Source: Candidatus Chisholmbacteria bacterium (GTDB taxonomy: Bacteria; Patescibacteriota; Microgenomatia; UBA1400; Chisholmbacteraceae). Taken from it: a stretch of 64,000 bases of DNA. Location: contig CAVPHZ010000001.1 in the NCBI GenBank assembly GCA_963704905.1, positions 65,547 through 129,546 of the forward strand. The letters run 5' to 3'. Below are positions 17,226 to 51,692 of the stretch, piece after piece. The position numbers and the translations under genes were made by a program. Every line of letters starts with the position of its first letter. Position 1 is the first letter of the stretch. Below the pieces are notes generated by a model. The model was not told where the DNA came from, made no database searches, and was given only the letters and a program-made list of their open reading frames with translations.

Positions 17226-17292
17226 ATGTCTAAGTTATTAGAAACATTTCGTAAAGTCAATTCCAAATAAAGAATGTTGTATATTGGTTTTA

Positions 17293-18855
17293 ATGAATAA
17301 GAAAAGGATTGGTATTGTTGTTGGAATTTTTGGATTTGTATTGCTTCTATTTTTGATTCCTGGACTAGTAGACAAGGGCAGCAAACCTGATTCAGGTGAT
17401 TCCAACTCTTCTTCTGAAGCAACTCTTCAACAAGTAAGTGTTAGAAAAGCGGCAGTATCCGGACAGTTTTATCCAAAAGATCAAGATGAGCTGAAGGAAA
17501 CTATCACAGGGTATCTGTTAAGCGCTGCTAAACAAAACAGTGAAATTAAACCAAGGATACTATTTGCTCCCCACGCCGGATTAGAATTCTCTGGAAAAAC
17601 TGCTGCATATGCTTATAAGCAAATAGAAGGTCACCAATACTCGAGGGTAATTATCCTTAGTGGAAATCATCATCATAAGAGTAAAAAAGCTGCGGTATAT
17701 GATCAGGGATCTTGGGAAACACCACTTGGTGCTGTTGATGTCGATGAAACCATTGGTCTTATGCTTATTGATGAGGAGAAAAGTATTATTTCGAATCCAA
17801 CTATGTTCACTCAAGATCATACGATTGAAATGGAGATACTCTTTCTTCAATCCGTACTAAATGACTTTAAAATTGTACCAATTCTTCTTGGTCAGGTAGA
17901 TGAAAGTGTCATCGAAGCGTTAGCACAGAAGCTCTACGAAATCATGGATGAGAACACACTGATTGTAGTAAGTACTGACCTTTCCCACTATCCAACATGG
18001 GAAGTTGCTAACCAAGTTGATCATCAGACGATTAATGCAATTGTCGGTGGTAGTCGGGAAACTTATCTCAATTCAGTTGAACATTTAACTCAAGAATATG
18101 CTTCACAAATCGATACTCATGCATGTGGAACCAAAGCCGTTGAGGTTGCACTGCAAACTGCTGAACTACTTGAGATATCAGACTTTGAGCTGATTGTTTA
18201 TTCAAATTCTGGAGATATTACAGGTGATCATTCTCGAGTTGTTGGGTATGCTGCAATTGTTGCTAGCAAAGATCATCTTCCTGGTTCATTTCTTAATGAA
18301 TCAGCAAAGAAAGAGGCGCTGGCTATTGCTCGAGAAACACTTGAGTCATATTTGACAGGTGGCGGCACGCCTCAATTTTCACCACATTCACGGTATCTCT
18401 ATTTTCCCCTTGGTGCATTTGTTACTCTGGAGAATGGTGATCAGCTTCGAGGTTGTATTGGTCATTTTGAACCTGCCATACCACTCCATAGAGTCATCCA
18501 GCAGGCAGCGATTGATGCGGCAACCAAGGATCACCGTTTTAAAAATGTCACTTCGTCCGAGATGAATGAGATTGAGATTGAAGTATCAATCATGACACCT
18601 CGGAGGAAAATAGACTCTTGGGAAGAAATCGAACTTGGCAAGCATGGTGTAGTTGTGCAAAAATCTAAAATATCTGGTACTTTTTTACCTCAGGTTGCAA
18701 CCGATACCGGGTGGAGCAAGGAAGAATTCTTAAAAGAGCTTTGTAGTCAGAAAGCCGGTCTTGCCAGAAATTGCTACCAAGACCCTTCGGTTGCACTTTA
18801 TGTATTTGAAGCACAGATTTTTGCAGATTATGAAGTCTCGGGATCACATATCTGA
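17293..18855 (+). CDS. Memo (AmmeMemoRadiSam protein B-like) - AMMECR1 fusion protein with N-terminal signal anchor
   Basis: N-terminus 'MNKKRIGIVVGIFGFVLLLFLIPGLV' followed by a Ser-rich linker. Memo motifs are 'LFAPHAGLEFSGKTAA', 'VIILSGNHH', 'DHTIEMEILFLQ...FKIVPILLG' and 'VVSTDLSHYP'. The C-terminal half has the AMMECR1 signature 'LRGCIGHFEP' at nt 18436-18474. Confidence 0.7.
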   Translation: MNKKRIGIVVGIFGFVLLLFLIPGLVDKGSKPDSGDSNSSSEATLQQVSVRKAAVSGQFYPKDQDELKETITGYLLSAAKQNSEIKPRILFAPHAGLEFSGKTAAYAYKQIEGHQYSRVIILSGNHHHKSKKAAVYDQGSWETPLGAVDVDETIGLMLIDEEKSIISNPTMFTQDHTIEMEILFLQSVLNDFKIVPILLGQVDESVIEALAQKLYEIMDENTLIVVSTDLSHYPTWEVANQVDHQTINAIVGGSRETYLNSVEHLTQEYASQIDTHACGTKAVEVALQTAELLEISDFELIVYSNSGDITGDHSRVVGYAAIVASKDHLPGSFLNESAKKEALAIARETLESYLTGGGTPQFSPHSRYLYFPLGAFVTLENGDQLRGCIGHFEPAIPLHRVIQQAAIDAATKDHRFKNVTSSEMNEIEIEVSIMTPRRKIDSWEEIELGKHGVVVQKSKISGTFLPQVATDTGWSKEEFLKELCSQKAGLARNCYQDPSVALYVFEAQIFADYEVSGSHI

Positions 18856-18861
18856 GCTAAC

Positions 18862-19545
18862 TTAATCTCCCTTAGCTGCTGTCGCGCATAGATTACATCC
18901 TCTTAGCATGTTAGATTTGTTTCCTTTTCGATCGACATAAAAGATATCAGTATTTTTAAACCCTGCTTCGTTAAGAAGTTTTCTCAAATACGCTTTATCA
19001 AACGCTACGTAAAATCTATTCCATTTATTTTGGTAGGGTTCATACAAGTATCGCCAATTTTTTCGTTTGAGTTTCAAGCTTTCTTTGGAAAAATGAGTAT
19101 CTAAATGACGAAAGTTCAGAAAATTCCATACAGAAATGTTGAGTACCCCTCCGTTTTTTAAGATAGATCTCGATTTATTTAGAACATACAATTGCTTTTT
19201 TCGCTCAGAAATGTGATGGAGTACAGCAATACAAAAGATAGCATCAAACTTAGGCAACCCTTTCCATACTTTTGACTTTGTGATATCCCCGTAGATAAAT
19301 TTTCGTTCAGGGTGTATATGTCGAGCATTCTTGAGAAGTGTCTTTGAAAAATCGATACCAATATATTCCACATTATTTTTTATTCCTGTCAGCAACCTTC
19401 CATTTCCACAACCAAGATCTAAGAGTTGATCACCACTTTTTAATTTTTCAAGTTCTTTCAATGTTTCCGGCCATACAAAACGCCTAGTTTTGCTAAAATG
19501 TTCTGCAATCTGGTTATATGTATCTTTTACCTGGTCTTGAATCAT
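18862..19545 (-). CDS. Class I SAM-dependent methyltransferase
   Basis: Motif I is 'LLDLGCGNGRLL' and motif post-I is 'EYIGIDFS'. The start codon overlaps the Elp3 start on the other strand. Confidence 0.75.
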   Translation of the reverse strand: MIQDQVKDTYNQIAEHFSKTRRFVWPETLKELEKLKSGDQLLDLGCGNGRLLTGIKNNVEYIGIDFSKTLLKNARHIHPERKFIYGDITKSKVWKGLPKFDAIFCIAVLHHISERKKQLYVLNKSRSILKNGGVLNISVWNFLNFRHLDTHFSKESLKLKRKNWRYLYEPYQNKWNRFYVAFDKAYLRKLLNEAGFKNTDIFYVDRKGNKSNMLRGCNLCATAAKGD

Positions 19546-21097
19546 GACATTATCACAACTTCTCTTAAGAGATTTTACGAAACTTTCAGAGAAAAATCTT
19601 TCTCAATATAAAAGACGTTGGGCAAAGTCCTTGGGTCATACTCCAAAGAATTCGAGTATACTCTCGACGTATTTTCGCCTCGTAGATCAAGGTGAGATCA
19701 ACCGTAATCAAAGTCTTGAAAGGCTATTTCAGGTAAAAAGCATGAGAAGTGTTTCCGGTGTAACACCTATGGCTGTGATGACTAAGGCATTTTATTGTCC
19801 CGGACAATGCACCTTCTGCCCAATTGATCTCAACCTTCCAAAAAGTTATTTGCGAGATGAGCCAGCTGCACAGAGGGCTTTGAAAGTGAACTTTAATCCG
19901 TATGAACAAGTCCGTAATCGTCTTAGACAGCTGGCATTAACTGGGCATGTAACAGATAAAGTTGAGCTGATTGTAATTGGTGGAACTTTCTCGGTGTACT
20001 CTAAAGAGTACAGGCGGTCTTTTTTTAAAGGATTGTTTGATGCGTGCAACGGCATTCAAAGCAAAACACTAAAAGCTGCTCAAAAGAAAAATGAATCCGC
20101 CAAACATCGCATTGTTGGCATTAGTATCGAGACACGGCCTGACTGGATTGATGAAAAAGAAGTTCGCCTGCTACGCGAGCTTGGAGTAACAAAACTCCAA
20201 GTTGGTGTTCAAGCTTTTGACCCTGTGATACTCAAGAAGGTGAAACGAGGACACTCTTTGAAACCTGTAGCAAATGCGACGCTGATGCTACGTAATGCTG
20301 GATTTAAGATTTGCTATCACTTCATGCCAAATCTTCCTGGGTCTAATCCAGAGAAAGATGTCGAAATGGCAAAAGTAATGTATCAGGATTCGCGGTTTAA
20401 GCCTGATTTTGTGAAAATTTATCCCACACAAGTGATACCTCGAACAGAGTTGTATGAACAATGGAAGCGAGGAGAATTCAGGACATATGATGATGAAATA
20501 ATGAAAGAAGTGCTTAAAAAGATAAAACTTATCACTCCACCTTGGGTTCGTATTGATCGGCTAGTACGAGATATCTCAAAGCAATGGGTTGCAGGAGGCA
20601 CGCTGCAGACTAATATGCGTCAGGTGATCCAACAGGAACTAGCTATGGAAGGCAAGCAATGTCAATGTATTCGATGCAGGGAGGTGAAAAGAAAGCTCTC
20701 TAACGAAACACCTCGTATGAAACGGATTACTATCGATACACTGGGTGGCACAGAAGTGTTTCTTGAGTATTCAACTGGAAAACATCTCTATTCTTTGTTG
20801 AGGATGCGACTGCCGAATGAAAAGCAAACGATGCTGTTTACTGAACTGAACGGTGCCGCGATTATTAGGGAAATCCATACCTATGGAGGTGTAGTTCCGG
20901 TTAATGAAAAACAGGATGACAGAGCTCAACATACGGGGTTTGGCAAGTCACTGCTTGAAAGAGCAGAAAGAATAGCAACAAAGAACGGTTTTAAGAAGGT
21001 TGCTGTCATTTCAGCGATTGGAACTCGTAATTATTATCGCAAGCTTGGTTATCTGCTTGAAGGTATGTATATGTTGAAACACCTTGCTAGTGATTAA
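19544..21097 (+). CDS. Elp3-family radical SAM + GNAT protein (tRNA uridine-34 carboxymethylation / acetyltransferase homolog)
   Basis: The Elp3 N-terminal signature is 'RSVSGVTPMAVMTKAFYCPGQCTFCP', with CxxxCxxC at nt 19791-19824. The C-terminal GNAT has 'QHTGFGKSLLERAERIA' (QHxGxG). Confidence 0.75.
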   Translation: MTLSQLLLRDFTKLSEKNLSQYKRRWAKSLGHTPKNSSILSTYFRLVDQGEINRNQSLERLFQVKSMRSVSGVTPMAVMTKAFYCPGQCTFCPIDLNLPKSYLRDEPAAQRALKVNFNPYEQVRNRLRQLALTGHVTDKVELIVIGGTFSVYSKEYRRSFFKGLFDACNGIQSKTLKAAQKKNESAKHRIVGISIETRPDWIDEKEVRLLRELGVTKLQVGVQAFDPVILKKVKRGHSLKPVANATLMLRNAGFKICYHFMPNLPGSNPEKDVEMAKVMYQDSRFKPDFVKIYPTQVIPRTELYEQWKRGEFRTYDDEIMKEVLKKIKLITPPWVRIDRLVRDISKQWVAGGTLQTNMRQVIQQELAMEGKQCQCIRCREVKRKLSNETPRMKRITIDTLGGTEVFLEYSTGKHLYSLLRMRLPNEKQTMLFTELNGAAIIREIHTYGGVVPVNEKQDDRAQHTGFGKSLLERAERIATKNGFKKVAVISAIGTRNYYRKLGYLLEGMYMLKHLASD

Positions 21098-41901: not shown

Positions 41902-42924
41902 TTATTTCGAAATCTTCTCCATTAAGTGTAGTGTTTCTGTCTTCTTATTTTCTGTTACCGGTACAATAACTACTCCGTGTTCGAAATGTCCATATATTAC
42001 AACTGCATTAAGCGGGGCAGCTAATATACACGGTAACACAGCCAAATCTTCCTCTCCAATAACCTCTATTACCACTGGGCTATTATGTATCTGTTCAAGC
42101 AATAGAATTGAAAGATCTGATGTAATTGTTCCCGCAGGGTTTATTACTTTGTTATGTTGAATATTATTTGGCCACCGATATTCCGAAATATCCTTATATT
42201 TTCGTTTCCTTCTTACATGAAGGTCCACAATTGATACATCTGGCAATGTTCCTATCGCTAATAATGAACTCGTAACATCATCTCCAACACTTACAATAGG
42301 CGATAATTTCTCAGTTCTAACGAAATTCATTACTTTATGAATAACTTCATTAGAATCCTTTACGTCACCGAGAATAATTTTCCCGTATGGCTCTCTAAAC
42401 GTAGCACGATGCTTTCGAGATATAGTAATAGGAGCAGCATTTAAGAGTTTGGTTGAGTAATGCTCTCCTTCTCTGGAGATATAACCTTGTCGGATCCTGG
42501 TTGAAGAGATTGGCTTTCCGTCTTCAGCTAAAGTTAGTTCGCAGTTGAAAAGTTTGAGAGGTCTTAAATTCAATTCTCTTCGCTGTTGATTAATCCTTTT
42601 TCCTCCGACTCTCGTATTTTCGGTAACGAGTAGAGCTTCTAAAAACCTATCGTGAGTGGTTGGACCATATGGATCTGATAAGGTGATTATCTCTGAGTTC
42701 TTTTCTGTTTGTGTCTGATGTAAATAGCTTTTTACGCTTTCCCTTCTTTGTTTATATGGTTGAAGTAATTCATTATAATGCACTTTTCGTGCATACGATT
42801 CATCGGTAACACCGATTGTTACTTTTTTTGAAATTGAAAATGCATTATTTAGAAAGTGGCGATGTCCTTTATGAAACCTGTCAAATGTTCCACCTAAGGC
42901 GAGGTGTTTAATTTTCTTTCCCAT
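41902..42924 (-). CDS. Fusion of archaeal-type phosphopantetheine adenylyltransferase (COG1019) and DUF359 GTP-dependent dephospho-CoA kinase (COG1909)
   Basis: The N-terminal half has 'LALGGTFDRFHKGHRHFL' (T/HxGH nucleotidyltransferase) and 'DGKPISSTRIRQG'. The C-terminal half has 'VGDDVTSSLL', 'NPAGTITSDL' and 'VIEVIGEEDLAVLPCILAAP...VIYGHFEHGVVIVPV', which is DUF359-like. The alternative start 42966 overlaps gltX. Confidence 0.6.
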   Translation of the reverse strand: MGKKIKHLALGGTFDRFHKGHRHFLNNAFSISKKVTIGVTDESYARKVHYNELLQPYKQRRESVKSYLHQTQTEKNSEIITLSDPYGPTTHDRFLEALLVTENTRVGGKRINQQRRELNLRPLKLFNCELTLAEDGKPISSTRIRQGYISREGEHYSTKLLNAAPITISRKHRATFREPYGKIILGDVKDSNEVIHKVMNFVRTEKLSPIVSVGDDVTSSLLAIGTLPDVSIVDLHVRRKRKYKDISEYRWPNNIQHNKVINPAGTITSDLSILLLEQIHNSPVVIEVIGEEDLAVLPCILAAPLNAVVIYGHFEHGVVIVPVTENKKTETLHLMEKISK

Positions 42925-42940
42925 TGGCTGGGGACTATTT

Positions 42941-44377
42941 TTATTCTTGAAGTGTGGTTGCGGCATGTTTAAGCCTTTTCATTGATTCTTTTTTTCCCAA
43001 TATTTCCAGGCTCTCAAATAATGGAGGACTGATTTCTTTCCCTGTAATTGCGACTCTTAATGTCATAAATACTTTTCTTGTTGACCAGTTATTTGATATG
43101 AGTGATCTTGTTTTTGATTCTAGTTCTATTGTTTTGAAACTCTCATTCTTCACAGACTTTAAAAGCTCATTAGCTTTTATAATAAGTCTCTTCGTTTCAT
43201 TCGCATTGTGCTTGCTCTGTTTAAGAAGATTTTCCGCTGTTGGCTTCGGCGCAGTGAAAAAGAATTCGGAATACTCTTTGAATTCACTTAGCGTGTGAAT
43301 TCTTTCTTTAACGAGTGGTATTATTTTCATCACAATCATTTTTTTTGATTCCTTCGGCAAGAAATCTGTAAGTTCGTTGTATAACTCTCCATTGTTCATG
43401 TTTCTAATATAGCGGCCATTCATCCAGGTAAGCTTTTCAATATCGAATATTGGTTGGGTGGTTTTTATTCTTTTAAGAGAGAATTTACTGACATATTCTT
43501 TGAGTGAAAATATTTCCTTTTCCTCGGGATGAGACCACCCTAATAAAGCTAGATAGTTGACTAAAGCTTTTGGAAGATATCCATGTTCTTTATACCAGGA
43601 AACCGAGACAGGATTTCGACGCTTAGAGAGCTTTGAACGATCTGGATTTCGCAGGAGTGGAGTATGTGCATATATTGGAAGCTTCCACCCAAATGCTTTG
43701 TAGATTAAAATATGCTTCGGAGTTGAAGAAATCCACTCCTCTGCACGAATAACATGTGATATTTTCATCAAATGATCATCAACTACTACAGCAAGGTGAT
43801 AGGTTGGATAACCATCTGACTTGAGAATTATCTGGTCGTCTATTGTAATATTTTCAAAGCTGATTTCTCCTCTAATGACATCATTCCAGCTTGTATTTCC
43901 TGACTTTGGTATATTGAATCGGATAACATGTTTTTCCTTTTTTGACCTATCTTGAGCTATTTTTTTGTCGATATGCTTACATTTTCCATCGTACATTGAA
44001 AGTTTTCCGGCTTTTTGTTGTGCTTTTCGCATTGCAGATAATCTCTCAGAGGAGCAAAAGCAATAATATGCAAATTGATTATGAACTAATTCTTCAGCAA
44101 ATTTTCTATACAGCTCCAGTCGTTTCGATTGTGTATATGGAGCGTATTTCCCGCCGATATCAGGTCCTTCGTCGTACTTAATTCCGAGCCATTGAAGCGA
44201 CTTATATATAATAGTTTCAGCACCAGGGACGTATCGATCACGGTCTGTATCTTCGATACGCAGTACAAATTTTCCTTTATTATTTTTTGAAAATACGTAG
44301 TTGATTAGCGCTGTATACATGTTTCCAACATGCGCAATACCGGTTGGGCTTGGTGCGATTCGAGTTCTGACTTTCAT
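42941..44377 (-). CDS. gltX: Glutamate--tRNA ligase
   Basis: 'RIAPSPTGIAHVGNMYTAL' is a HIGH-like motif. 'VLRIEDTD' is present. The KMSKS equivalent is 'KLSKR'. Confidence 0.9.
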   Translation of the reverse strand: MKVRTRIAPSPTGIAHVGNMYTALINYVFSKNNKGKFVLRIEDTDRDRYVPGAETIIYKSLQWLGIKYDEGPDIGGKYAPYTQSKRLELYRKFAEELVHNQFAYYCFCSSERLSAMRKAQQKAGKLSMYDGKCKHIDKKIAQDRSKKEKHVIRFNIPKSGNTSWNDVIRGEISFENITIDDQIILKSDGYPTYHLAVVVDDHLMKISHVIRAEEWISSTPKHILIYKAFGWKLPIYAHTPLLRNPDRSKLSKRRNPVSVSWYKEHGYLPKALVNYLALLGWSHPEEKEIFSLKEYVSKFSLKRIKTTQPIFDIEKLTWMNGRYIRNMNNGELYNELTDFLPKESKKMIVMKIIPLVKERIHTLSEFKEYSEFFFTAPKPTAENLLKQSKHNANETKRLIIKANELLKSVKNESFKTIELESKTRSLISNNWSTRKVFMTLRVAITGKEISPPLFESLEILGKKESMKRLKHAATTLQE

Positions 44378-44429
44378 ATCACCGGTTGCATTTTATCAGA
44401 GGTAGTCGTTATACTCAAAGGAGTAATCT

Positions 44430-45494
44430 ATGGCCACACTCACAGAAACTGCCCACATCACAAGACAGCTCATTAAATATGGCTCGATTTCACTTGTTGT
44501 AATTCTTTTTCTCCGTTTAGGTTTTGCAGCGTTTTTCCGGTGGTGGGATCTTTCCCATCCACCTCCTCCTCCGCCGGCAACTGTTACTTTTGGAAAGCTC
44601 CCTGCAATCCCTTTTCCTGAACAAAATCAAAAAACGTTTCATTTTGAGCTGCAAACCATATCTGGAGATACTGGTGAATTTAATTTACTTGGTAATGTGT
44701 ATTTTATGCCAAAGAAGACTGCTAGCCTCCTAGCTCTTGATAGAGCCACGGGACTCGCGAGAAAATTAGATTTTATCTTCGAGCCAGTAAAGATATCTGA
44801 AACAGCATATGAGTGGACTAAAGATGAACCGTTTCCTTCAACATTGCGCATAGAGACTCTGACAGATCAGTTTACATATGAAACTAATTGGCAAGTGCGA
44901 CCTGACTTATTGACTACTGCTCGAGCTCCCTCAGAAGCCGAGGCAATCAGTATTGTACGAAGCTGGTTATCGGGCATTGGAAAATTACCATCTGATCTTG
45001 CTTCAGGAGAAGCCGAAGTATCGTATTTAAAATTAGTTGGAACCGAAATTGTCCCTGCTTTATCTCAATCTGAAGCACAATTGATTCGCGTTGATCTTTT
45101 TCGTGCACCTATTGAAGAGAAGATTGTCAGACCCTTAAATCCAGATAAAGGAATTGTTAGAGTGATGTATATCCCAAGCCGCTCACGTTCGCAAAATGAA
45201 CTAACGGTAATTGATGCTCAATACAACTATCATCCTGTTGAGTATGAACAGAGTGCGACTTATCCACTAATTAGTTCTCGAGAGGCTTGGAAAATACTTC
45301 AAGAAGGTGAAGGCTACTTTGCTCAATTTCCAAACAATGTCGATAGCATTATTATTCGCAGTATACGCCTTGGATATTTTGACCCACCTGAACCTGGATT
45401 CTTCCTTCAACCGGTGTTTATTTTTGAAGGTGATCCGGATTTTATCGGATATACCTCTGCCATTATTGATGAGTGGATATCAAAACCCGAATGA
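44430..45494 (+). CDS. Hypothetical signal-anchored protein with poly-Pro tract and about 290-aa extracytoplasmic domain
   Basis: TM segment 'ISLVVILFLRLGFAAFF', then 'HPPPPPPATV'. No recognisable family. Confidence 0.4.
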   Translation: MATLTETAHITRQLIKYGSISLVVILFLRLGFAAFFRWWDLSHPPPPPPATVTFGKLPAIPFPEQNQKTFHFELQTISGDTGEFNLLGNVYFMPKKTASLLALDRATGLARKLDFIFEPVKISETAYEWTKDEPFPSTLRIETLTDQFTYETNWQVRPDLLTTARAPSEAEAISIVRSWLSGIGKLPSDLASGEAEVSYLKLVGTEIVPALSQSEAQLIRVDLFRAPIEEKIVRPLNPDKGIVRVMYIPSRSRSQNELTVIDAQYNYHPVEYEQSATYPLISSREAWKILQEGEGYFAQFPNNVDSIIIRSIRLGYFDPPEPGFFLQPVFIFEGDPDFIGYTSAIIDEWISKPE

Positions 45495-45502
45495 AATATG
45501 CA

Positions 45503-46546
45503 TTATATTGGACCAGGTTCTACCCAATCATGAGCTCTGTATGCCCATTCAATAAGCGATTTTGATTCGCCGAAACGATCGCTACTTCGAAGTAATACCG
45601 TGATGATCTCTTTATTATCCCGGATTGTACTTGTTACTAAACACTCTCCTGCTTGTTCTGTCCAGCCTGTCTTTATGCCCCGAACACCCTCAACAGGTCC
45701 CAGTAAATCATTTATATTTCTAAGCGGATGTGTAATTTTTTGATCAACATCCGTGATGAGTTGGTTCTGCGTCGATACGATCTTTTCAAATATTGGATTC
45801 TGCATTGCGACTTTTGCAAGTTTCGCCAAGTCTGAAACTGTTGTAAAGTGGCCTATCTGATCAATACCTGAGACATTTTGAAAGTGCGTATTGTACATGT
45901 GATACTTTGTTGCCAACTGGTTCATTTCTTGAATATAAGCGTTGTATCCCCCATCAAAATTTTCGGCAAGTGCATATGCTGCATCGTTTCCTGAGTGGAG
46001 GAGCAAACCATAGAGTAAGTCCTCGACTGTAATCCTTTCTCCTTTTACGAGATCCATCGTTTGACCGACGCTTCTATCCGCAAGTTTTACGGTTATAACC
46101 TTGTCGAGAGAGTAATGTTTCAGCGCAACTAGGGCGGTCATGATTTTGGTCGTTGATGCTGGAAGAAGTGGTTCGTTAGGATTTTTTTCGTACATCACTA
46201 CACCCGACTTCACATCCATAACAATTGCTGACTTGGCAGTAAGTTCGGGAACATCAATATCAACATTTTGAACTGGATATGGAGCTGGGTCAGGAAGTTT
46301 AGTTGAAACATTGCGAAGATAGGGAGGTTGTGGTTTGATTTGTAATTGAAAATACGGATTATCTCCAGGAAGAAGTAGAAAAGTCAGGCCCAAGCAAATA
46401 AAAGCAGGATTTTTTTGGAGTGAAAAAGCAACGGTAACAAAACTTTTGATATCTTTCTTCCATTGTTGAACTTTTTTCTTCTTTTTTATATTTTTTTGAA
46501 GGTCGCGAAGGTTTCTACGAAGCTGTTTGAGACTTATTGCTTTCAT
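45503..46546 (-). CDS. D-alanyl-D-alanine carboxypeptidase (peptidase S11, PBP5/6-like)
   Basis: SxxK 'ASTTKIM', SxN 'HSGND' and KTG 'IKTGWT'. The N-terminus is Lys-rich and there is a TM anchor. Confidence 0.8.
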   Translation of the reverse strand: MKAISLKQLRRNLRDLQKNIKKKKKVQQWKKDIKSFVTVAFSLQKNPAFICLGLTFLLLPGDNPYFQLQIKPQPPYLRNVSTKLPDPAPYPVQNVDIDVPELTAKSAIVMDVKSGVVMYEKNPNEPLLPASTTKIMTALVALKHYSLDKVITVKLADRSVGQTMDLVKGERITVEDLLYGLLLHSGNDAAYALAENFDGGYNAYIQEMNQLATKYHMYNTHFQNVSGIDQIGHFTTVSDLAKLAKVAMQNPIFEKIVSTQNQLITDVDQKITHPLRNINDLLGPVEGVRGIKTGWTEQAGECLVTSTIRDNKEIITVLLRSSDRFGESKSLIEWAYRAHDWVEPGPI

Positions 46547-46554
46547 TCGTGAAA

Positions 46555-48405
46555 TTATTTTGAAAATGAACCAATTGTTGGGTTGACAATTTTTTCATAG
46601 TCTTGATATCTCATATCTATTGATTGGCTGTGAAGACCTGCATTGAAACTGATAGTTTTTTGGGTTTTAAGTTTCTCATCAACATATACCGGTAATTCAA
46701 ATATGTTTCCAAACGGAGGAATCGCACCAATCTCAATACCAGTTATTTCTATAACTTCTTGGGCTGATGCCATATGTAAGTCTTTCACGTTATATAATTT
46801 TTTAAAGGTCTTGTTGTCGATTCTTGTTGCTGCAGAAAGCACAAGCATCGCTGGTTTCTTGTCGGTATACATGATGAGTGCTTTTGCGCCTTGTTCTAAT
46901 TTTGTGCCTCGGACCTTGGCTGCTTGTTCGCTAGTGTAAATAGGTTCGTGCTTATAGCTCTTGAACTTCGCTTTGTTTTTTTTCAGCAATTCAGATATTT
47001 TTTCCAAGACTTCTTCTCCTGTAAAAGTTGTCTGTTTGGAGATGACTTTAATGTGGAGCTCTTCCAGCTGTGCATCATCGAGTGTTGAGGGAGCATCCAT
47101 GATAGATGTTCTCCCTCTTCCCGTTTGTGGAAAAGCCTGTACTTCTCGTAAATAGTCCTCGCCAAAATATGCCATGAGTAAGCGTTCGAACCCTTGAGCG
47201 CATCCACCGTGGGGTGGCGTTCCATATTCAAATGCTTGTAACATATGTCCAAATTGGTCTTCAATCTGCTCGTCAGAATACCCTAATATTTCAAATACCG
47301 ACCGGAGCACCTCCGGTCTATGAGAGCGAATGCTCCCCCCAGAAACCTCAAGGCCATTGCATACCAAGTCATATTGTGAAGTGATAATATTTCCAATGTT
47401 CTTTTTTTCAAGCAGCCATTTTTCGTGGTCCTCAGATACAGGTTGAGAGAATGGATTGTGAGTAAATGTCCAATTTCCTTCACCATCTTTTTCAAAAAAC
47501 GGAAAGTCAATAACCCATGCAAATGATAGAAGACCTTTCTCCTGTTCTTTGTTACTTCGCAGGTCAAATTTATCTGCTCCAAATTTTTTTAATGCTTCGT
47601 TGTAGGTAAACACCGGGAATGGTTTTTTTACTATTTTAGCGCCAATATTTTCTATAGCAAAAACTGTCATATCTTCGATCATTTGCATTACTTCTTTTCT
47701 TGTCGTAAAGCTCATTTCCATGTCAATTTGAGTATGTTCGAAACCTCTATCAGCTCTAGGATCCTCGTCTCTCAAGCAACGAGCTATTTGGAAGTATCGC
47801 TCAAAACCTGCTGTCATCAAGAGCTGTTTGTATTGTTGTGGACTTTGTGGAAGAGCAAAAAATTTCTCGGGTTGCAAGCGACTTGGTGTAATAAAGTCGC
47901 GAGAGCCTTCCGGTGTTGATTTTGTTAAAATTGGGGTTTCAATCTCGATAAAGTTATTTGAGAAAAGATACTCTCGAGCCGCTTGTACGTAGGCTGACCT
48001 CAACCTGATGTTTCTCTGTAATCGTTTTCGTCGCAAGTCTAAATATCTGTATTTTAATCGTATCTCTTCTTCGATGTTGTATCCATCGGTATCAAGAGGA
48101 AACGGCATCTCTTTTGACTGGTTGAGCACGACAACACTCAACTCCTCAACTTCAACAGTTCCTGTATGTAAATTTGGATTGATGAGATGGTTCGGGCGTC
48201 TTTTTACTCTGCCTTCAATTTCGACAACGAATTCGGGTCGGAGTCTTTTTAGATCTTTTCCACCCACTACTTGAACTAATCCTGTACGGTCGCGAAGATC
48301 GATAAATACAACTTTCCCATGATCACGCCTGGAATGAATCCAACCTTTAAGAAGTACTTTCTGTTCAATTTTATCTATGGTTTCACTCGCAAGCGTTCGA
48401 ATCAT
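46555..48405 (-). CDS. aspS: Aspartate--tRNA ligase (archaeal/eukaryal short type, no GAD insertion) fused to a C-terminal YbaK/ProX-like aminoacyl-tRNA deacylase domain
   Basis: The N-terminus has an anticodon-binding OB fold. Class II motifs are 'FERYFQIARCLRDED' and 'GGSIRSHRPEV...GTPPHGGCAQGFERLLM'. The core is about 445 aa. The last 170 aa or so contain 'ASAQEVIEITGIEIGAIPPFG', which matches YbaK 'ASPEEVEEITGYPVGGVSPFG'. Confidence 0.75.
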   Translation of the reverse strand: MIRTLASETIDKIEQKVLLKGWIHSRRDHGKVVFIDLRDRTGLVQVVGGKDLKRLRPEFVVEIEGRVKRRPNHLINPNLHTGTVEVEELSVVVLNQSKEMPFPLDTDGYNIEEEIRLKYRYLDLRRKRLQRNIRLRSAYVQAAREYLFSNNFIEIETPILTKSTPEGSRDFITPSRLQPEKFFALPQSPQQYKQLLMTAGFERYFQIARCLRDEDPRADRGFEHTQIDMEMSFTTRKEVMQMIEDMTVFAIENIGAKIVKKPFPVFTYNEALKKFGADKFDLRSNKEQEKGLLSFAWVIDFPFFEKDGEGNWTFTHNPFSQPVSEDHEKWLLEKKNIGNIITSQYDLVCNGLEVSGGSIRSHRPEVLRSVFEILGYSDEQIEDQFGHMLQAFEYGTPPHGGCAQGFERLLMAYFGEDYLREVQAFPQTGRGRTSIMDAPSTLDDAQLEELHIKVISKQTTFTGEEVLEKISELLKKNKAKFKSYKHEPIYTSEQAAKVRGTKLEQGAKALIMYTDKKPAMLVLSAATRIDNKTFKKLYNVKDLHMASAQEVIEITGIEIGAIPPFGNIFELPVYVDEKLKTQKTISFNAGLHSQSIDMRYQDYEKIVNPTIGSFSK

Positions 48406-48520
48406 AATTTTCTGATGGCTGTATTGTAACTTCTTCCCTGGTACTTGACAAGCCTGGCGCTCGAGATGAATCTCGAGCATCACTACTTTATTTCAATCAA
48501 AATTCTCTCTAGAAAATAGT

Positions 48521-50212
48521 TTATTTTCGATCGATTTGCTGTGTTGATAAAATATCTTTTATCAATAGCTGTATTGTTGCTCTTCCTTTCCACTCATTCC
48601 TGTCGAGTGTGCAGACAATATCGATCTTAGACCCATTTGAAAGTTGAGAAAGTAAGAATCCTCTATTGAACCCGATTGCATCAAACGTGTTGTTACTACA
48701 CTCAAGCGTTAACTTTAGATGTTTTCCCTCCATACCTACACCTCTGCTGTCGATGAGATTACAGTTTCTTATTGCAAACGTTGGTCTGGAATTTCCCATT
48801 CCAAATGGTTCAAATATTTTTAATTCACGTAGAAGATCCCAGTGAATGTCTGCTCCAGAAATCTCGCAATCTATTGATAGACGTTTTTCTAAATGTTCCT
48901 CTGTAATGTGTTTTTCAGCTAACTCGATCATTAATGTTTTAAATTTTTCTAGATTTTTTGTTTCGAGCGTAAATCCGGCTGCCATTGGATGCCCGCCTGC
49001 GTCAATAAGATGCTCTTCAGTTTGACGAATTGCTTCGATAATATTGAATCCTGAAATTGAACGAGCGGAAGCTTTGGATACACGTTTTCCTTTTGAGATT
49101 ATAATTGCTGGACGATAGTACGACTCCACCATTTTTCCAGCTACTAGCCCGATGAGGCCTTCATGAAACTCACTATGATCGATGATGATAATTTTTGCAT
49201 CATGATTTCCATCGTTATCGTATAGCTCTTTTGCTTGAAATACTGCTTCTTCTGTCATGAGCTGTCTTCTTTTGTTCGTCTCATTAAGTGTGCTAATAAG
49301 TTGTTTGGCCCGCATTTTGTCTTTTGTACAAAGTAAACGTAGAGAGTCAAGAGCGTGCTCCAACCTACCCATCGCATTGATCCGGGGAGCAATCATGAAA
49401 TTGATATGATATGTTCCAAGATCCATTGGATTTAATCCTGCTTCTAGGAAGAGTTCTAACAAACCAACTCTTTGGGTCTTTTGCAGACTCTCTAAACCAT
49501 GTTTGACTATTGATCGATTAGGGCCAACGAGCGAGACCATATCTGCCACGGTACCAATTGCGGCAAGATCTAATAAGCTGTTCAATTTGGTGGATATTTT
49601 ACTTTTCTTCACTATCTCTTTTGCAAACATCCAGGTGACTCCTGCTCCTGCCAGCAAGGTTGTGTGGACTATTGCATGTGCATTGGGAACTATAGATGTT
49701 TTTTGATGATGATCACAGATAAGGACATCAACCCCTTTTTTTTGAGCGTAATTCACCGCGTTATAAGCGACTATCCCATTATCAACAGTAATAATGAGTG
49801 TGGGTTTTTTACGCTTGCTTTCGCTAAGAAGGTCATCGATTCCTTTCTTTGATAAACCGTATCCATGCTTCTCTCGATGAGGAATAAATGGAAGAACGTT
49901 TGCTTTAAGCGAGTTTAATGTTTCCCAAAGGATTGCGGTTGAACAAATACCATCCGCGTCATAATCGCCATAGATAATGATGTTCTCTTTGACTTTGATG
50001 GCTTTTTCAATTCTTCTGACTGCTTTTTGTAGATTTATTCTGTTGATTCCAACCTGAGAAAGCGTTAACTTTTTCGGTTTATGAGGTGATAAAAATATTT
50101 CAACATTTTCTTTTCCAGTTATCCCACGATTTCTAAGGAGTGATTGGATGATTTCTTCTCTTCGCTTTTCTTGGGTTTTTGCTTTGATGATCTGTTTAAT
50201 TTCCCACTTCAT
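48521..50212 (-). CDS. recJ: Single-stranded-DNA-specific exonuclease RecJ
   Basis: DHH motifs are 'YGDYDADGI', 'ICDHHQ' and 'DNGI'. DHHA1 is 'GGHPMAAG'. Confidence 0.85.
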   Translation of the reverse strand: MKWEIKQIIKAKTQEKRREEIIQSLLRNRGITGKENVEIFLSPHKPKKLTLSQVGINRINLQKAVRRIEKAIKVKENIIIYGDYDADGICSTAILWETLNSLKANVLPFIPHREKHGYGLSKKGIDDLLSESKRKKPTLIITVDNGIVAYNAVNYAQKKGVDVLICDHHQKTSIVPNAHAIVHTTLLAGAGVTWMFAKEIVKKSKISTKLNSLLDLAAIGTVADMVSLVGPNRSIVKHGLESLQKTQRVGLLELFLEAGLNPMDLGTYHINFMIAPRINAMGRLEHALDSLRLLCTKDKMRAKQLISTLNETNKRRQLMTEEAVFQAKELYDNDGNHDAKIIIIDHSEFHEGLIGLVAGKMVESYYRPAIIISKGKRVSKASARSISGFNIIEAIRQTEEHLIDAGGHPMAAGFTLETKNLEKFKTLMIELAEKHITEEHLEKRLSIDCEISGADIHWDLLRELKIFEPFGMGNSRPTFAIRNCNLIDSRGVGMEGKHLKLTLECSNNTFDAIGFNRGFLLSQLSNGSKIDIVCTLDRNEWKGRATIQLLIKDILSTQQIDRK

Positions 50213-50264
50213 GAATTTATGATCGATTATTTTTTAATGCACACGTTATAATAGTCTACAGGAT

Positions 50265-51692
50265 ATGATAACTCTCTCTCTACCCACTCTTGTCGTTAGC
50301 ATTCTTTCTACACTTTATGAAAACCGCTTTCAAGGCTATATCGTCGGAGGAGCAGTTCGAGATGTGATGCAAAAAAAGCCAGTTTATGATTGGGATTTCA
50401 CTACAAATGCCGTACCGCAGCAAATACAGAATCTGTTTAGAGAAAGTTTTTATGACAATGAATTTGGAACTGTACGAGTTGCTGGAAAGCATTTAAATAT
50501 TCAATTCCAACTTCCATCGTCTGACTGGGATGACATCCTGTTTGATATTACTACGTATCGCACGGAGTCCGGATATAGTGATCGTCGACGTCCAGATACG
50601 GTACGCTGGGGAACTGATATTCATGAAGATCTTTCTCGTCGGGATTTTACGATTAATGCAATGGCATTTAAACCAAAATCGGCTGAGCGATTAAAGCAGG
50701 CAGTAAAAATATCTAAAGGAAGATCAACTGTCGATCTTCGAATGACAATTGTTGATCCGTATTATGGAAGGGTTGATCTTTCGAAGAAACTGATTAAAAC
50801 CGTTGGTGATCCGGATATGCGGTTCAATGAAGACGCTCTCCGCATGATACGTGCAATTCGCATTGGTTCCCAACTTGCATTTCAAGTCGAAGGAAAAACC
50901 CTTGAGTCAATTCGTAAAAATTCTGGACTGCTGCGACATGTAAGTTGGGAAAGAACTCGAGATGAATTGTTAAAAATAATATGCTCCGAGTATCCAGCTG
51001 ATGGAGTATTGCTACTCCATTCTTCCGGTTTGTTGGACTATATTTTGCCAGAGCTCCTCGAATCGAGAGATGTTCCTCAAGCTGGGCATCATATTTATGA
51101 TGTATGGACACACAGTATTGAAAGTCTGCGACATTGTCCTTCTACTGATCCCTTGGTTCGCTTAGCTGCTCTCCTACACGATGTTGGCAAGCCCAGAGCC
51201 TTTCGTGATACCGATGGAAAGATAACTTTCTATAACCATGAGATGATCGGAGCTAAGATGGTTCTTTCTATTGCCGATCGATTACGATTGTCAAAAAAAG
51301 AGAAAGAGAGACTTTACACTCTGGTTCGTTGGCACATGTTTGCATATGATCCGAAAATGACAGATGCTTCCATTCGACGGTTCATTCGAAGAGTTGGAGT
51401 AGAAAATATTAATGACATGATGCTATTGCGCGTTGGAGATCGGAAGGGTGGTGGAAGTAAAGCTACATCCTGGAGGCTGAGAGAACTGCAACAGCGGATT
51501 GGAGACCAACTTTATGAACCTATGACTGTGCGAGATTTGAAAATAAATGGTCATGATTTAATGAAAGCACTCGGTATGGAACCTGGACCAAAAATTGGAG
51601 AAATATTAAATACGCTTTTCGAAGAAGTGATGGAAGATTCTAAAAATAATGAACGAGAATATTTACTACAGAGAGCAAAAGAATTAACTTAG
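50265..51692 (+). CDS. cca: CCA tRNA nucleotidyltransferase / poly(A) polymerase family with HD domain
   Basis: 'IVGGAVRDVM...DWDFTT' is the Pol-beta nucleotidyltransferase motif. The HD domain is 'LLHDVGKP'. Confidence 0.8.
   Translation: MITLSLPTLVVSILSTLYENRFQGYIVGGAVRDVMQKKPVYDWDFTTNAVPQQIQNLFRESFYDNEFGTVRVAGKHLNIQFQLPSSDWDDILFDITTYRTESGYSDRRRPDTVRWGTDIHEDLSRRDFTINAMAFKPKSAERLKQAVKISKGRSTVDLRMTIVDPYYGRVDLSKKLIKTVGDPDMRFNEDALRMIRAIRIGSQLAFQVEGKTLESIRKNSGLLRHVSWERTRDELLKIICSEYPADGVLLLHSSGLLDYILPELLESRDVPQAGHHIYDVWTHSIESLRHCPSTDPLVRLAALLHDVGKPRAFRDTDGKITFYNHEMIGAKMVLSIADRLRLSKKEKERLYTLVRWHMFAYDPKMTDASIRRFIRRVGVENINDMMLLRVGDRKGGGSKATSWRLRELQQRIGDQLYEPMTVRDLKINGHDLMKALGMEPGPKIGEILNTLFEEVMEDSKNNEREYLLQRAKELT

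What the first reader, a model, noticed from the sequence alone, without database searches (positions are those of the whole stretch)
46555..48405. Archaeal-type AspRS with an appended YbaK/ProX-like deacylase domain
The synthetase core is about 445 aa without the bacterial GAD insertion, that is archaeal/eukaryal type and possibly non-discriminating. The extra 170 C-terminal residues or so match the YbaK/ProX trans-editing fold ('ASAQEVIEITGIEIGAIPPFG'). Editing domains of this family are normally free-standing or inside ProRS. Attached to AspRS, this suggests proofreading of a mischarged tRNA other than the canonical Cys-tRNAPro, possibly in cis.
Basis: partly seen in the sequence, partly recalled or inferred. 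Interest (0 to 1): 0.55.

Follow-up and report, generated by a model that had tools for sequence, protein, structure and literature searches.

The report
AspRS fused to YbaK-like deacylase
The aspartyl-tRNA synthetase of this candidate-phyla-radiation bacterium carries an intact YbaK-type tRNA-proofreading domain on its C-terminus; the combination is widespread in its relatives, no paper I could search describes it, and it suggests that AspRS, thought to need no editing, has a built-in or tethered editing step here.

Summary
Window 46555..48405 (-) is one 616-aa ORF made of an OB anticodon-binding domain, a class IIb AspRS core and a C-terminal PF04073 (YbaK/INS superfamily) domain (E 1.2e-29).

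The catalytic Lys (K508) and the GxxxP loop are invariant in 93-120 homologues. The domain is under purifying selection.

The core is bacterial-type AspRS with the GAD insertion cleanly deleted and the bacterial C-terminal extension kept. It does carry the His29 residue found in non-discriminating AspRS structures.

The fusion is widespread. Of 82 related loci (Gottesman-, Roizman-, Woese-, Shapirobacteria and others), 47 have this architecture. Sixteen have the same domain on an archaeal-type AspRS and 3 on a GAD-containing bacterial AspRS. In 5 loci the domain is a separate gene just downstream of aspS, and in 2 loci, both encoding the same protein, it is fused to the next gene, a D,D-carboxypeptidase.

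The domain co-evolves with the flanking genes while the AspRS core was swapped, with breakpoints in the linker.

Most likely it is a tethered post-transfer editing module for AspRS products. The substrate is unknown. The closest characterised relative is YeaK/ProXp-ST1 (31% identity).

No literature description was found. I rate it a new variant of a known kind.

The parts
46555..48405 (-). Whole gene: 616-aa AspRS with a YbaK-like deacylase domain, stop codon included
   Evidence: The start at 48405 is supported by alignment to 92 homologues.
48091..48405 (-). Residues 1-105: N-terminal OB-fold anticodon-binding domain, bacterial type
   Evidence: PF01336, E 4e-14. Best PDB match is the P. 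aeruginosa non-discriminating AspRS 4WJ3 at 101.6 bits.
48319..48321 (-). His29 codon (RRDHG), a residue associated with non-discriminating bacterial-type AspRS
   Evidence: His in the Asp/Asn ligases 4WJ3, 4RMF and 5W25; Leu in the discriminating 1EFW/6HHV. Invariant in 93 fused homologues and nearly universal in related loci. The functional meaning of this position is from my own knowledge (Bernard et al. 2006, not read here).
47131..48069 (-). Residues 113-425: class IIb catalytic core (motifs 1-3, QSPQ loop)
   Evidence: PF00152, E 2.5e-105. QSPQ, the motif 2 RDED and the motif 3 G..R are invariant.
47527..47544 (-). Residues 288-293 (QEKGLL): scar where the bacterial GAD insertion (about 118 aa in T. 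thermophilus AspRS) is missing
   Evidence: Two-block alignment to 1EFW, 15-299 and 418-578. Two-stretch hit to NF001750.
47005..47130 (-). Residues 426-467: vestigial bacterial C-terminal extension plus linker, predicted to be a flexible tether
   Evidence: Aligns to 1EFW up to residue 578 of 580. AlphaFold2 pLDDT is 41-55 over about 426-460. Mean pairwise identity is 53%.
46558..47004 (-). Residues 468-616: YbaK/INS-superfamily aminoacyl-tRNA deacylase domain, lpg1207/3OP6-like subgroup
   Evidence: PF04073, E 1.2e-29. 3OP6, E 2e-25. Foldseek TM 0.82-0.87. 31% identity to E. coli YeaK, E 3e-22. Omega 0.02-0.08.
46882..46884 (-). Lys508 codon, equivalent of the YbaK catalytic Lys46
   Evidence: Alignment to 1DBU. 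100% conserved in 120 and in 93 homologues.
46708..46728 (-). Residues 560-566 (GAIPPFG): the GxxxP loop of the INS superfamily
   Evidence: Aligns to GGISPLG of YbaK. G560, P563, P564 and G566 are invariant.
45503..46546 (-). Downstream neighbour: membrane-anchored D,D-carboxypeptidase (Peptidase_S11), 8 nt after the aspS stop. In some relatives this gene is the fusion partner of the same YbaK-like domain.
42941..51692 (.). Conserved synteny block: GluRS, hypothetical 354-aa gene, Dac, AspRS-YbaK-like, RecJ, CCA-adding enzyme
   Evidence: The same order recurs in most of the 82 related loci whatever the AspRS type.

Best explanation
The gene encodes one polypeptide with two enzymes.

N-terminal part. 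It is a bacterial-type, GAD-less aspartyl-tRNA synthetase. It aminoacylates tRNAAsp and, judging by its anticodon-domain signature, probably also tRNAAsn (non-discriminating).

C-terminal part. It is a catalytically competent aminoacyl-tRNA deacylase of the YbaK/INS superfamily. A flexible segment of about 35-40 residues tethers it to the synthetase.

Proposed mechanism. After aminoacyl transfer, the 3' end of the tRNA still bound or just released by AspRS is sampled by the tethered domain. The invariant Lys508 and the GxxxP loop position the ester, and a wrong aminoacyl-tRNA is hydrolysed. This is post-transfer editing, in cis or as a tethered trans factor. AspRS supplies the tRNA affinity that free-standing members of this family lack.

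Shown: the architecture, the fold, the intact active-site motifs, purifying selection, wide distribution, and persistent coupling to three different AspRS types.

Inferred: hydrolytic activity, that the targets are AspRS products, and that AspRS is non-discriminating.

Not determined: the substrate. Candidates are Ser/Thr-type misacylations as for YeaK, D-Asp-tRNAAsp, or unamidated Asp-tRNAAsn.
For: Architecture and fold.

Active site: K508, the GxxPPFG loop, H486, R499 and FNAG are invariant or nearly so in 93-120 homologues.

Purifying selection: domain omega is 0.02-0.08. Its conservation (54%) matches that of the OB domain (56%).

Distribution: all 120 best homologues are fused. At least 577 species genomes encode a relative of the domain.

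Coupling to AspRS, across 82 loci:
- 47 bacterial-type GAD-less fusions.
- 16 archaeal-type fusions.
- 3 bacterial-type fusions that keep GAD.
- 4 partial.
- 5 of the 10 stand-alone copies lie immediately downstream of aspS.

No other synthetase partner: AspRS is the only aminoacyl-tRNA synthetase found among the 16 multidomain proteins I scanned from the 150 best representatives.

Domain kept while the core was swapped:
- Domain identity tracks the flanking Dac gene (rho 0.69; 0.55 for pairs with different AspRS type) and RecJ (0.63; 0.41).
- 8 of 16 archaeal-type fusions have a bacterial-type fusion as their nearest domain neighbour.
- Similarity between such pairs starts abruptly at the first helix of the domain.

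Tether: residues about 426-460 have pLDDT 41-55, and the full-length pTM is 0.65.

Non-discriminating hint: His29. The archaeal-type partners pass the aspartate--tRNA(Asn) ligase model.
Against: - No activity data exist, and the substrate cannot be read from sequence.
- Covalent linkage is not obligatory. Separate-gene forms exist (L045, L061, L063, L076, L077). A form fused to the downstream carboxypeptidase through a TM helix, with aspS on the other strand, also exists (L002/L003).
- The same domain clade is also fused to RuvX, GmrSD_N and GNAT, so it fuses readily.
- The whole block CCA/RecJ/AspRS/domain/Dac/hyp/GluRS is syntenic. Adjacency to aspS alone is therefore weak evidence of a functional link.
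- AspRS is not known to need editing. The 2024 review lists seven editing synthetase families, and AspRS is not named in it.
- The NJ tree has no support values, and dS is saturated in the omega estimates.
- His29 could reflect ancestry rather than specificity.
Confidence: 0.55

Rival explanations
1. Generic trans-editing factor fused by accident of gene order. The domain is the lineage's general YeaK-like deacylase (for example for Ser/Thr-tRNAs, or for ProRS errors). It sits next to aspS in a conserved operon-like block and, in these compact genomes, has repeatedly lost the intervening stop codon. AspRS contributes nothing specific, or at most non-specific tRNA affinity.
For: - The closest characterised relative is YeaK/ProXp-ST1, a broad-specificity Ser/Thr-tRNA deacylase: 31% identity over the full length, function from the review.
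- Most close relatives in the 1.84-billion-protein library are free-standing proteins of 150-165 aa.
- The domain is also fused to Dac, RuvX, GmrSD_N and GNAT.
- Split forms exist.
- The whole neighbourhood is syntenic.
Against: - Fusion to AspRS is the majority state: 66 of 82 loci, with 4 more partial.
- It is found on three non-homologous or differently built AspRS cores.
- Breakpoints lie in the linker, and the domain is inherited with the locus. That pattern implies the fusion was re-established or kept each time the core changed.
- No other synthetase partner was found.
Confidence: 0.28
2. Non-catalytic tRNA 3'-end handling module. The domain binds or shields the aminoacylated CCA end without hydrolysing it. 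For example, it could hold Asp-tRNAAsn for hand-over to GatCAB as a built-in transamidosome scaffold.
For: - The AspRS looks non-discriminating.
- Loss of GAD mimics the archaeal-type architecture. By my recollection of the literature, that is the architecture that forms the T. thermophilus transamidosome.
Against: - The catalytic Lys and the GxxxP loop are 100% conserved. A pure binding module would not need them.
- No GatCAB gene was seen in the window or in the loci. This is weak evidence, because only about 64 kb plus flanks were examined.
Confidence: 0.08
3. Artefact: a missed stop codon, a frameshift or a chimeric assembly joins two separate genes.
For: In some relatives the two parts are separate or overlapping ORFs.
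Against: - The window has a single uninterrupted 616-codon frame.
- The same fusion is present in the 120 best database homologues and in at least 66 independent genome assemblies from many studies.
- The domain is under purifying selection.
Confidence: 0.01

Closest known systems
E. coli YeaK (ProXp-ST1), free-standing Ser/Thr-tRNA deacylase of the INS superfamily
   Same: - Same fold and full-length alignment: 31% identity, E 3e-22.
- Shares the H..., GQGAKAL (catalytic Lys), GAIPPF and FNAG motifs.
   Different: - YeaK is a single-domain trans factor.
- The window domain is appended to AspRS.
- The window domain belongs to a different, larger subgroup: more than 150 representative clusters are closer to it than YeaK.
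- Clade-specific residues differ: T491/S492 and H592 here, against K/C and L in YeaK.
- Substrate untested.
Legionella pneumophila lpg1207 (PDB 3OP6), structural-genomics protein of unknown function
   Same: Closest solved structure: E 2e-25, 35% identity, TM 0.82-0.86. Same motifs, including FNAGSH.
   Different: It is free-standing and uncharacterised. No paper in the searchable library cites it.
INS editing domain of bacterial ProRS, and the N-terminal ProXp-ala-ProRS fusions of lower eukaryotes
   Same: Same superfamily domain covalently joined to a class II synthetase, where it performs post-transfer editing of that synthetase's errors (review; Foldseek hits 5ZNJ and 2J3L).
   Different: - The partner is ProRS, not AspRS.
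- INS is inserted between motifs 2 and 3, and ProXp-ala is N-terminal. Here the domain is C-terminal on a flexible tether.
- Sequence similarity is low (5ZNJ E 0.03; ProXp-ala E 0.85).
YbaK (Cys-tRNAPro deacylase; 1DBU, 2DXA)
   Same: Same fold (TM 0.83), same catalytic Lys and GxxxP loop. By my recollection of the literature, YbaK works in a synthetase-YbaK-tRNA ternary complex, a non-covalent analogue of the tether proposed here.
   Different: - The window domain is below the YbaK equivalog cut-off (TIGR00011: 62 bits against 153).
- Only 24-25% identity.
- A different synthetase partner.
Bifunctional AspRS-GatC (NCBIfam NF009460)
   Same: A bacterial-type AspRS with a C-terminal add-on that acts on the AspRS product.
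   Different: The add-on there is GatC, an amidotransferase subunit, not a deacylase. The window protein scores 395 bits against a cut-off of 1379.
Bacterial-type non-discriminating AspRS (P. aeruginosa 4WJ3; Mycobacterium 4RMF, 5W25)
   Same: Best-matching anticodon-binding domain. Shares His in RRDHG. Same bacterial core and C-terminal extension.
   Different: Those enzymes keep the GAD insertion and have no editing domain.

Membership tests
Bacterial-type AspRS (NF001750 / TIGR00459) | Score above the curated equivalog cut-off | tested here: met
   NF001750: 593 bits against 443. TIGR00459: 531 bits against 374.
Bacterial-type AspRS (NF001750 / TIGR00459) | OB anticodon-binding domain plus class IIb core with the QSPQ loop and motifs 2 and 3 | tested here: met
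   Pfam. These residues are invariant in 93 homologues.
Bacterial-type AspRS (NF001750 / TIGR00459) | GAD insertion domain between motifs 2 and 3 | tested here: not met
   No PF02938 hit. 1EFW residues 300-417 have no counterpart. This makes it a GAD-less variant of the bacterial type. GAD-containing fusions do exist elsewhere (P0149, L020, L080, L082).
Bacterial-type AspRS (NF001750 / TIGR00459) | Bacterial C-terminal extension after motif 3 | tested here: met
   Query 426-455 aligns to 1EFW 548-578.
Archaeal/eukaryal-type AspRS (NF003483 / TIGR00458) | Score above the curated cut-off, and a better match than the bacterial model | tested here: not met
   226 bits against 353, and 208 bits against 368. 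Archaeal 3NEL scores 154 bits against 406 for bacterial 1EFW.
Non-discriminating AspRS (functional class) | Anticodon-domain residue pattern of bacterial non-discriminating enzymes (His at P. aeruginosa position 31) | tested here: met
   RRDHG as in 4WJ3, 4RMF and 5W25; Leu in 1EFW/6HHV. Invariant in the family. The role of this residue is from my own knowledge of Bernard et al. 2006.
Non-discriminating AspRS (functional class) | Charges tRNAAsn; the genome has GatCAB and lacks AsnRS | not testable with these tools
   Only 64 kb of the genome is visible. No gatCAB, asnS or tRNA genes were found in it. Window proteins are not on record for contig look-up.
YbaK/INS superfamily (Pfam PF04073 tRNA_edit) | Pfam score above the gathering threshold | tested here: met
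   103.3 bits against 25.5, covering profile positions 1-122 of 123.
YbaK/INS superfamily (Pfam PF04073 tRNA_edit) | YbaK/ProX fold | tested here: met
   AlphaFold2 pLDDT 95.2. All 37 Foldseek hits with E<=1e-3 are superfamily members; the free-standing deacylases have TM about 0.8-0.87 and the ProRS chains about 0.66-0.73.
YbaK/INS superfamily (Pfam PF04073 tRNA_edit) | Conserved catalytic Lys and GxxxP loop | tested here: met
   K508 aligns to YbaK K46, and GAIPP aligns to GGISP. Both are 100% conserved.
YbaK/INS superfamily (Pfam PF04073 tRNA_edit) | Aminoacyl-tRNA deacylase activity | not testable with these tools
   Needs enzymology.
YbaK proper (Cys-tRNAPro deacylase, TIGR00011 / NF007951) | Score above the equivalog cut-off | tested here: not met
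   62.4 bits against 153, and 38 bits against 243.
ProXp-ST1 / YeaK | Close sequence relationship to E. coli YeaK, and Ser/Thr-tRNA deacylation | tested here: inconclusive
   31% identity, E 3e-22, but more than 150 representative clusters are closer. No curated model exists and activity is untested. The relation to ProXp-ST2, -7, -8 and -9 could not be tested because no reference sequences were available.
ProXp-ala | Significant similarity to C. crescentus ProXp-ala (5VXB/1VJF) | tested here: not met
   E 0.85-0.98 by sequence. Only fold-level similarity.

The most novel reading that the evidence does not exclude
AspRS would be an eighth synthetase family with hydrolytic editing. In these CPR bacteria the tethered YbaK-like domain would police the indirect asparagine pathway or chirality.

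It would hydrolyse Asp-tRNAAsn that escapes GatCAB, telling it from Asp-tRNAAsp by the acceptor stem as other INS-family enzymes and GatCAB do. Alternatively it would hydrolyse D-Asp-tRNAAsp.

This would explain why the domain was kept through repeated replacement of the AspRS core by bacterial-type and archaeal-type non-discriminating enzymes.
Probability: 0.2. Interest if true: 0.8.

Novelty: new variant of a known kind. Interest (0 to 1): 0.62.

Why it matters
AspRS is treated as a synthetase that needs no proofreading. A 2024 review counts seven synthetase families with editing domains and does not mention AspRS. It also describes INS-superfamily members outside ProRS as single-domain proteins, apart from a ProXp-ala-ProRS fusion and a plant C-terminal domain.

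A conserved, apparently active editing domain on the housekeeping AspRS of a large bacterial radiation points to one of three things:
- an unrecognised error made by AspRS;
- a hydrolytic safeguard on the Asp-tRNAAsn intermediate of the indirect pathway;
- a general strategy by which reduced genomes give a weak-binding trans-editing factor a tRNA-binding platform.

The modular swapping of three AspRS cores onto one retained domain is a clean natural experiment in synthetase domain evolution. It also gives a handle on an uncharacterised INS subfamily (lpg1207/3OP6-like).

The hypotheses are directly testable with recombinant protein, a K508A mutant and defined aminoacyl-tRNAs.

Tried and rejected
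- Archaeal-type AspRS: rejected by model scores and PDB alignments.
- The YbaK-like domain as a replacement for GAD: rejected, because fusions that retain GAD exist (P0149, L020, L080, L082) and unfused GAD-less AspRS also exists (L002, L045, L061).
- Membership in YbaK proper or ProXp-ala: rejected.
- Assembly artefact: rejected by recurrence across assemblies.
- Search for gatCAB, asnS, proS and dtd. Twenty large window ORFs were scanned against NCBIfam. Motif searches recalled from memory were run on all ORFs of the window and of 82 loci. Nothing was found: the one GLEVH hit (L057) is an IF-2-like GTPase, and the amidase-signature hits (L058, L078) are in Chloroflexi loci and were not followed. 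This is uninformative for a whole genome.
- No tRNA genes in the window.
- Recovering the source contig: the window AspRS and GluRS are not on record, and the window genome was not among the 80 loci returned by the GTDB-representative scan.
- A locus search with the diverse alignment A1 failed for lack of conserved stretches. It was redone with A2.
- Tandem AspRS-like ORFs in L063, L076 and L077 were tested as possible AsnRS. All are archaeal-type AspRS.
None describes an AspRS-YbaK fusion. Three primary INS-family papers were not held, and Kuzmishin Nagy 2020 has no PMC id. The domain therefore could not be assigned to ProXp-ST2, -7, -8 or -9.
- Inter-domain geometry could not be measured, because the structure tool returns no coordinates.
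Full report
**1. What is in the sequence**

The minus-strand ORF 46555..48483 is 642 aa from its first GTG. Ninety-two homologues align from the ATG at 48405 (consensus M-x-R-T-L).

Pfam finds three domains:
- an OB anticodon-binding domain at 17-76;
- tRNA-synt_2 at 113-428 (E 2.5e-105);
- tRNA_edit PF04073 at 486-605 (E 1.2e-29, covering profile positions 1-122 of 123).

**2. The synthetase part is bacterial-type, not archaeal-type**

- NCBIfam gives 593 bits on the bacterial aspS equivalog (cut-off 443), in two stretches. It gives only 226 bits on the archaeal-type aspartate--tRNA(Asn) ligase model (cut-off 353).
- Against solved structures, T. thermophilus AspRS-1 (1EFW) scores 406 bits in two blocks. 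Query 13-288 matches 15-299, and query 293-455 matches 418-578 of 580. The archaeal enzyme 3NEL scores 154 bits.
- The GAD insertion, about 118 residues, is thus replaced by four residues. The bacterial C-terminal extension is retained.
The inference "archaeal/eukaryal type" is wrong.
- The QSPQ loop and motifs 2 and 3 are invariant in the family. This is a working AspRS, and it is the only one in the neighbourhood.

**3. A hint of non-discrimination**

- The best match of the anticodon-binding domain is the P. aeruginosa Asp/Asn ligase 4WJ3.
- The window has His29 in RRDHG. So do the three Asp/Asn ligases 4WJ3, 4RMF and 5W25. The discriminating T. thermophilus enzyme (1EFW/6HHV) has Leu.
- His29 is invariant in 93 fused homologues. 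It is nearly universal in the bacterial-type AspRS of related loci, fused or not.
- That this position influences tRNAAsn recognition is my recollection of Bernard et al. 2006. I did not read that paper here, so this is a lead and not proof.

**4. The C-terminal domain**

- The closest solved structure is Legionella lpg1207 (3OP6), which is uncharacterised: E 2e-25, 35% identity.
- Next come T. thermophilus ProX (2CX5) and YbaK (2DXA, 1DBU). ProXp-ala is not significant by sequence.
- An AlphaFold2 model of the domain has pLDDT 95.2.
- All 37 Foldseek PDB hits with E<=1e-3 belong to the YbaK/ProX/INS superfamily. The free-standing deacylases have TM about 0.8-0.87; the ProRS chains score lower.
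- Lys508 aligns with the YbaK catalytic Lys46, and GAIPPFG aligns with the GxxxP loop. Both are 100% conserved in 120 and in 93 homologues. H486, T491, S492, R499, F587 and N588 are also invariant or nearly so.
- The domain fails the YbaK equivalog cut-off (62 bits against 153).
- It is 31% identical over its full length to E. coli YeaK/ProXp-ST1 (E 3e-22), the nearest characterised enzyme.
- An exhaustive phmmer search of 1.84 billion representatives finds 980 relatives at E<=1e-10. Most are free-standing proteins of 150-165 aa, and more than 150 clusters are closer to the window domain than YeaK.
- The domain is under purifying selection. Omega is 0.02-0.08 in eight locus pairs, though dS is saturated. 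Mean pairwise identity is 54%, like the OB domain at 56%.

**5. Distribution and anatomy of the fusion**

The 120 best database homologues (57-68% identical) all have the three-domain architecture. Where they are named, they are called simply aspartate--tRNA ligase, from Gottesmanbacteria, Beckwithbacteria and the Microgenomates group.

A scan of GTDB species representatives found at least 577 genomes encoding a relative of the domain. I analysed the best 80 loci plus two from metagenomes:

| Architecture of the ORF holding the domain | Loci |
|---|---|
| Bacterial-type GAD-less AspRS + domain (as in the window) | 47 |
| Archaeal-type AspRS + the same domain | 16 |
| Bacterial-type AspRS with GAD + domain | 3 |
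| Partial (at contig ends) | 4 |
| Stand-alone domain | 10 |
| Domain + TM helix + downstream D,D-carboxypeptidase | 2 |

- The archaeal-type partners pass the aspartate--tRNA(Asn) ligase cut-off: P0121 scores 508 bits against 353.
- The GAD-containing form is exemplified by P0149.
- Five of the ten stand-alone copies lie immediately downstream of an unfused aspS (L045, L061, L063, L076, L077).
- In the two carboxypeptidase fusions, which encode the same protein (P0188), aspS lies inverted next door.
- Other partners in the clade are RuvX, GmrSD_N and GNAT, and there are tandem triplications.
- AspRS is the only synthetase partner among the multidomain proteins I scanned.
- The block CCA-adding enzyme / RecJ / AspRS / domain / Dac / 354-aa hypothetical / GluRS is conserved. 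It is the arrangement seen in window 42941..51692.

**6. The domain stays while the AspRS core changes**

- In an NJ tree of the domain, the three fusion types are intermixed and follow organism groups. The tree has no support values.
- Domain identity correlates with that of the flanking Dac: rho 0.69 overall, and 0.55 among pairs with different AspRS types. For RecJ the values are 0.63 and 0.41.
- Eight of 16 archaeal-type fusions have a bacterial-type fusion as their nearest domain neighbour.
- In same-group pairs (L079/L080 from Shapirobacteria, L009/L017 from Roizmanbacteria, L035/L022), similarity of about 65-70% starts abruptly at the first helix of the domain. The cores upstream are of different types.
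- The fused state was therefore kept or re-made through several core replacements. This argues for selection on the AspRS-domain partnership, not a single frozen accident.

**7. Tether**

- The full-length AlphaFold2 model has pLDDT above 90 in both modules.
- pLDDT falls to 41-55 over residues 426-460, and pTM is 0.65. The domain appears to sit on a flexible leash of about 35-40 residues.
- No coordinates were available, so reach to the acceptor end could not be measured.

**8. Mechanism**

Best explanation (confidence about 0.55): this is a bifunctional AspRS whose tethered INS-family domain hydrolyses a wrong aminoacyl-tRNA made by the attached, probably non-discriminating synthetase. Editing would be in cis or as a tethered trans factor. 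AspRS would provide the tRNA affinity that free-standing family members lack; the review notes that they lack RNA-binding domains and read acceptor-stem bases.

The substrate is open. Candidates are:
- Ser/Thr-type errors, as for YeaK;
- D-Asp-tRNAAsp (my recollection is that E. coli AspRS can charge D-Asp);
- Asp-tRNAAsn that escapes amidation. PMC3367201 states that such species can be misincorporated and that non-discriminating synthetases are toxic in E. coli.

Rivals:
- A generic trans-editing factor fused because of gene order (0.28).
- A non-catalytic module that handles the 3' end (0.08).
- An artefact (0.01).

**9. Comparison with what is known, and novelty**

- A 2024 review states that seven synthetase families have editing domains and does not name AspRS.
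- It also says INS-superfamily members other than INS are single-domain. The exceptions it gives are ProXp-ala-ProRS fusions and a plant C-terminal domain. ProXp-7, -8 and -9 are uncharacterised.
- Ten literature searches found no description of an AspRS-YbaK fusion.
- The architecture is visible in databases, as precomputed Pfam strings, but is annotated only as AspRS.
- I rate it a new variant of a known kind: a known editing fold on a synthetase family not known to edit.

**10. Limits**

- Whole-genome content (gatCAB, asnS, dtd, proS type) could not be examined.
- There are no activity data.
- Assignment of the domain among the ProXp subfamilies is unresolved.
- Several record titles reading "uncultured Gammaproteobacteria" look like placeholder labels.

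Noticed in passing
window 41902..42966 (-): A 354-aa protein fuses an archaeal-type pantetheine-phosphate adenylyltransferase (NF001985, residues 18-170) to an archaeal-type GTP-dependent dephospho-CoA kinase (NF041125, residues 183-352), in a CPR bacterium.
   Followed up: no
window 19544..21097 (+): A bacterial homologue of the Elp3 radical-SAM/GNAT tRNA-modification enzyme (TIGR01211, 511 bits).
   Followed up: no
window 17284..18855 (+): AmmeMemoRadiSam system proteins B and A are fused in one 523-aa ORF.
   Followed up: no
window 10525..15753 (-): A very long ORF of 1742 aa, not analysed.
   Followed up: no
window 44430..45494 (+) and related loci: A 354-aa hypothetical protein with an N-terminal hydrophobic segment. 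It is conserved next to the D,D-carboxypeptidase, on the opposite strand, in 14 of 16 archaeal-type and 39 of 47 bacterial-type fusion loci.
   Followed up: partly
L002:5309-6769 and L003:1986-3446 (P0188; also P0190): The same YbaK-like domain forms the cytoplasmic N-terminus of a membrane-anchored D,D-carboxypeptidase, in the order domain, Lys-rich linker, TM helix, Peptidase_S11. The unfused GAD-less aspS lies divergently next door.
   Followed up: partly
L063:53-2673: Two tandem archaeal-type aspS genes, both passing the aspartate--tRNA(Asn) ligase model, precede a stand-alone YbaK-like gene.
   Followed up: partly
P0148, P0163, P0228, P0125, P0127 (representative-library hits): Other architectures of the same domain clade: domain+RuvX, GmrSD_N+domain, domain+GNAT acetyltransferase, and proteins with three tandem copies. 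RuvX is also the next gene after the Dac fusion in L002.
   Followed up: partly
L020, L082 (titles 'Woesearchaeota archaeon' and 'uncultured Methanosarcinales'): GAD-containing bacterial AspRS plus domain fusions occur in records labelled as archaea and without the usual synteny. This could be mislabelled bins or a transfer outside the Microgenomates.
   Followed up: no
window 46546..46557: Only 8 nt separate the aspS stop (TAA) from the ATG of the downstream carboxypeptidase. RecJ ends 115 nt upstream of the aspS ATG. The layout looks operon-like.
   Followed up: no
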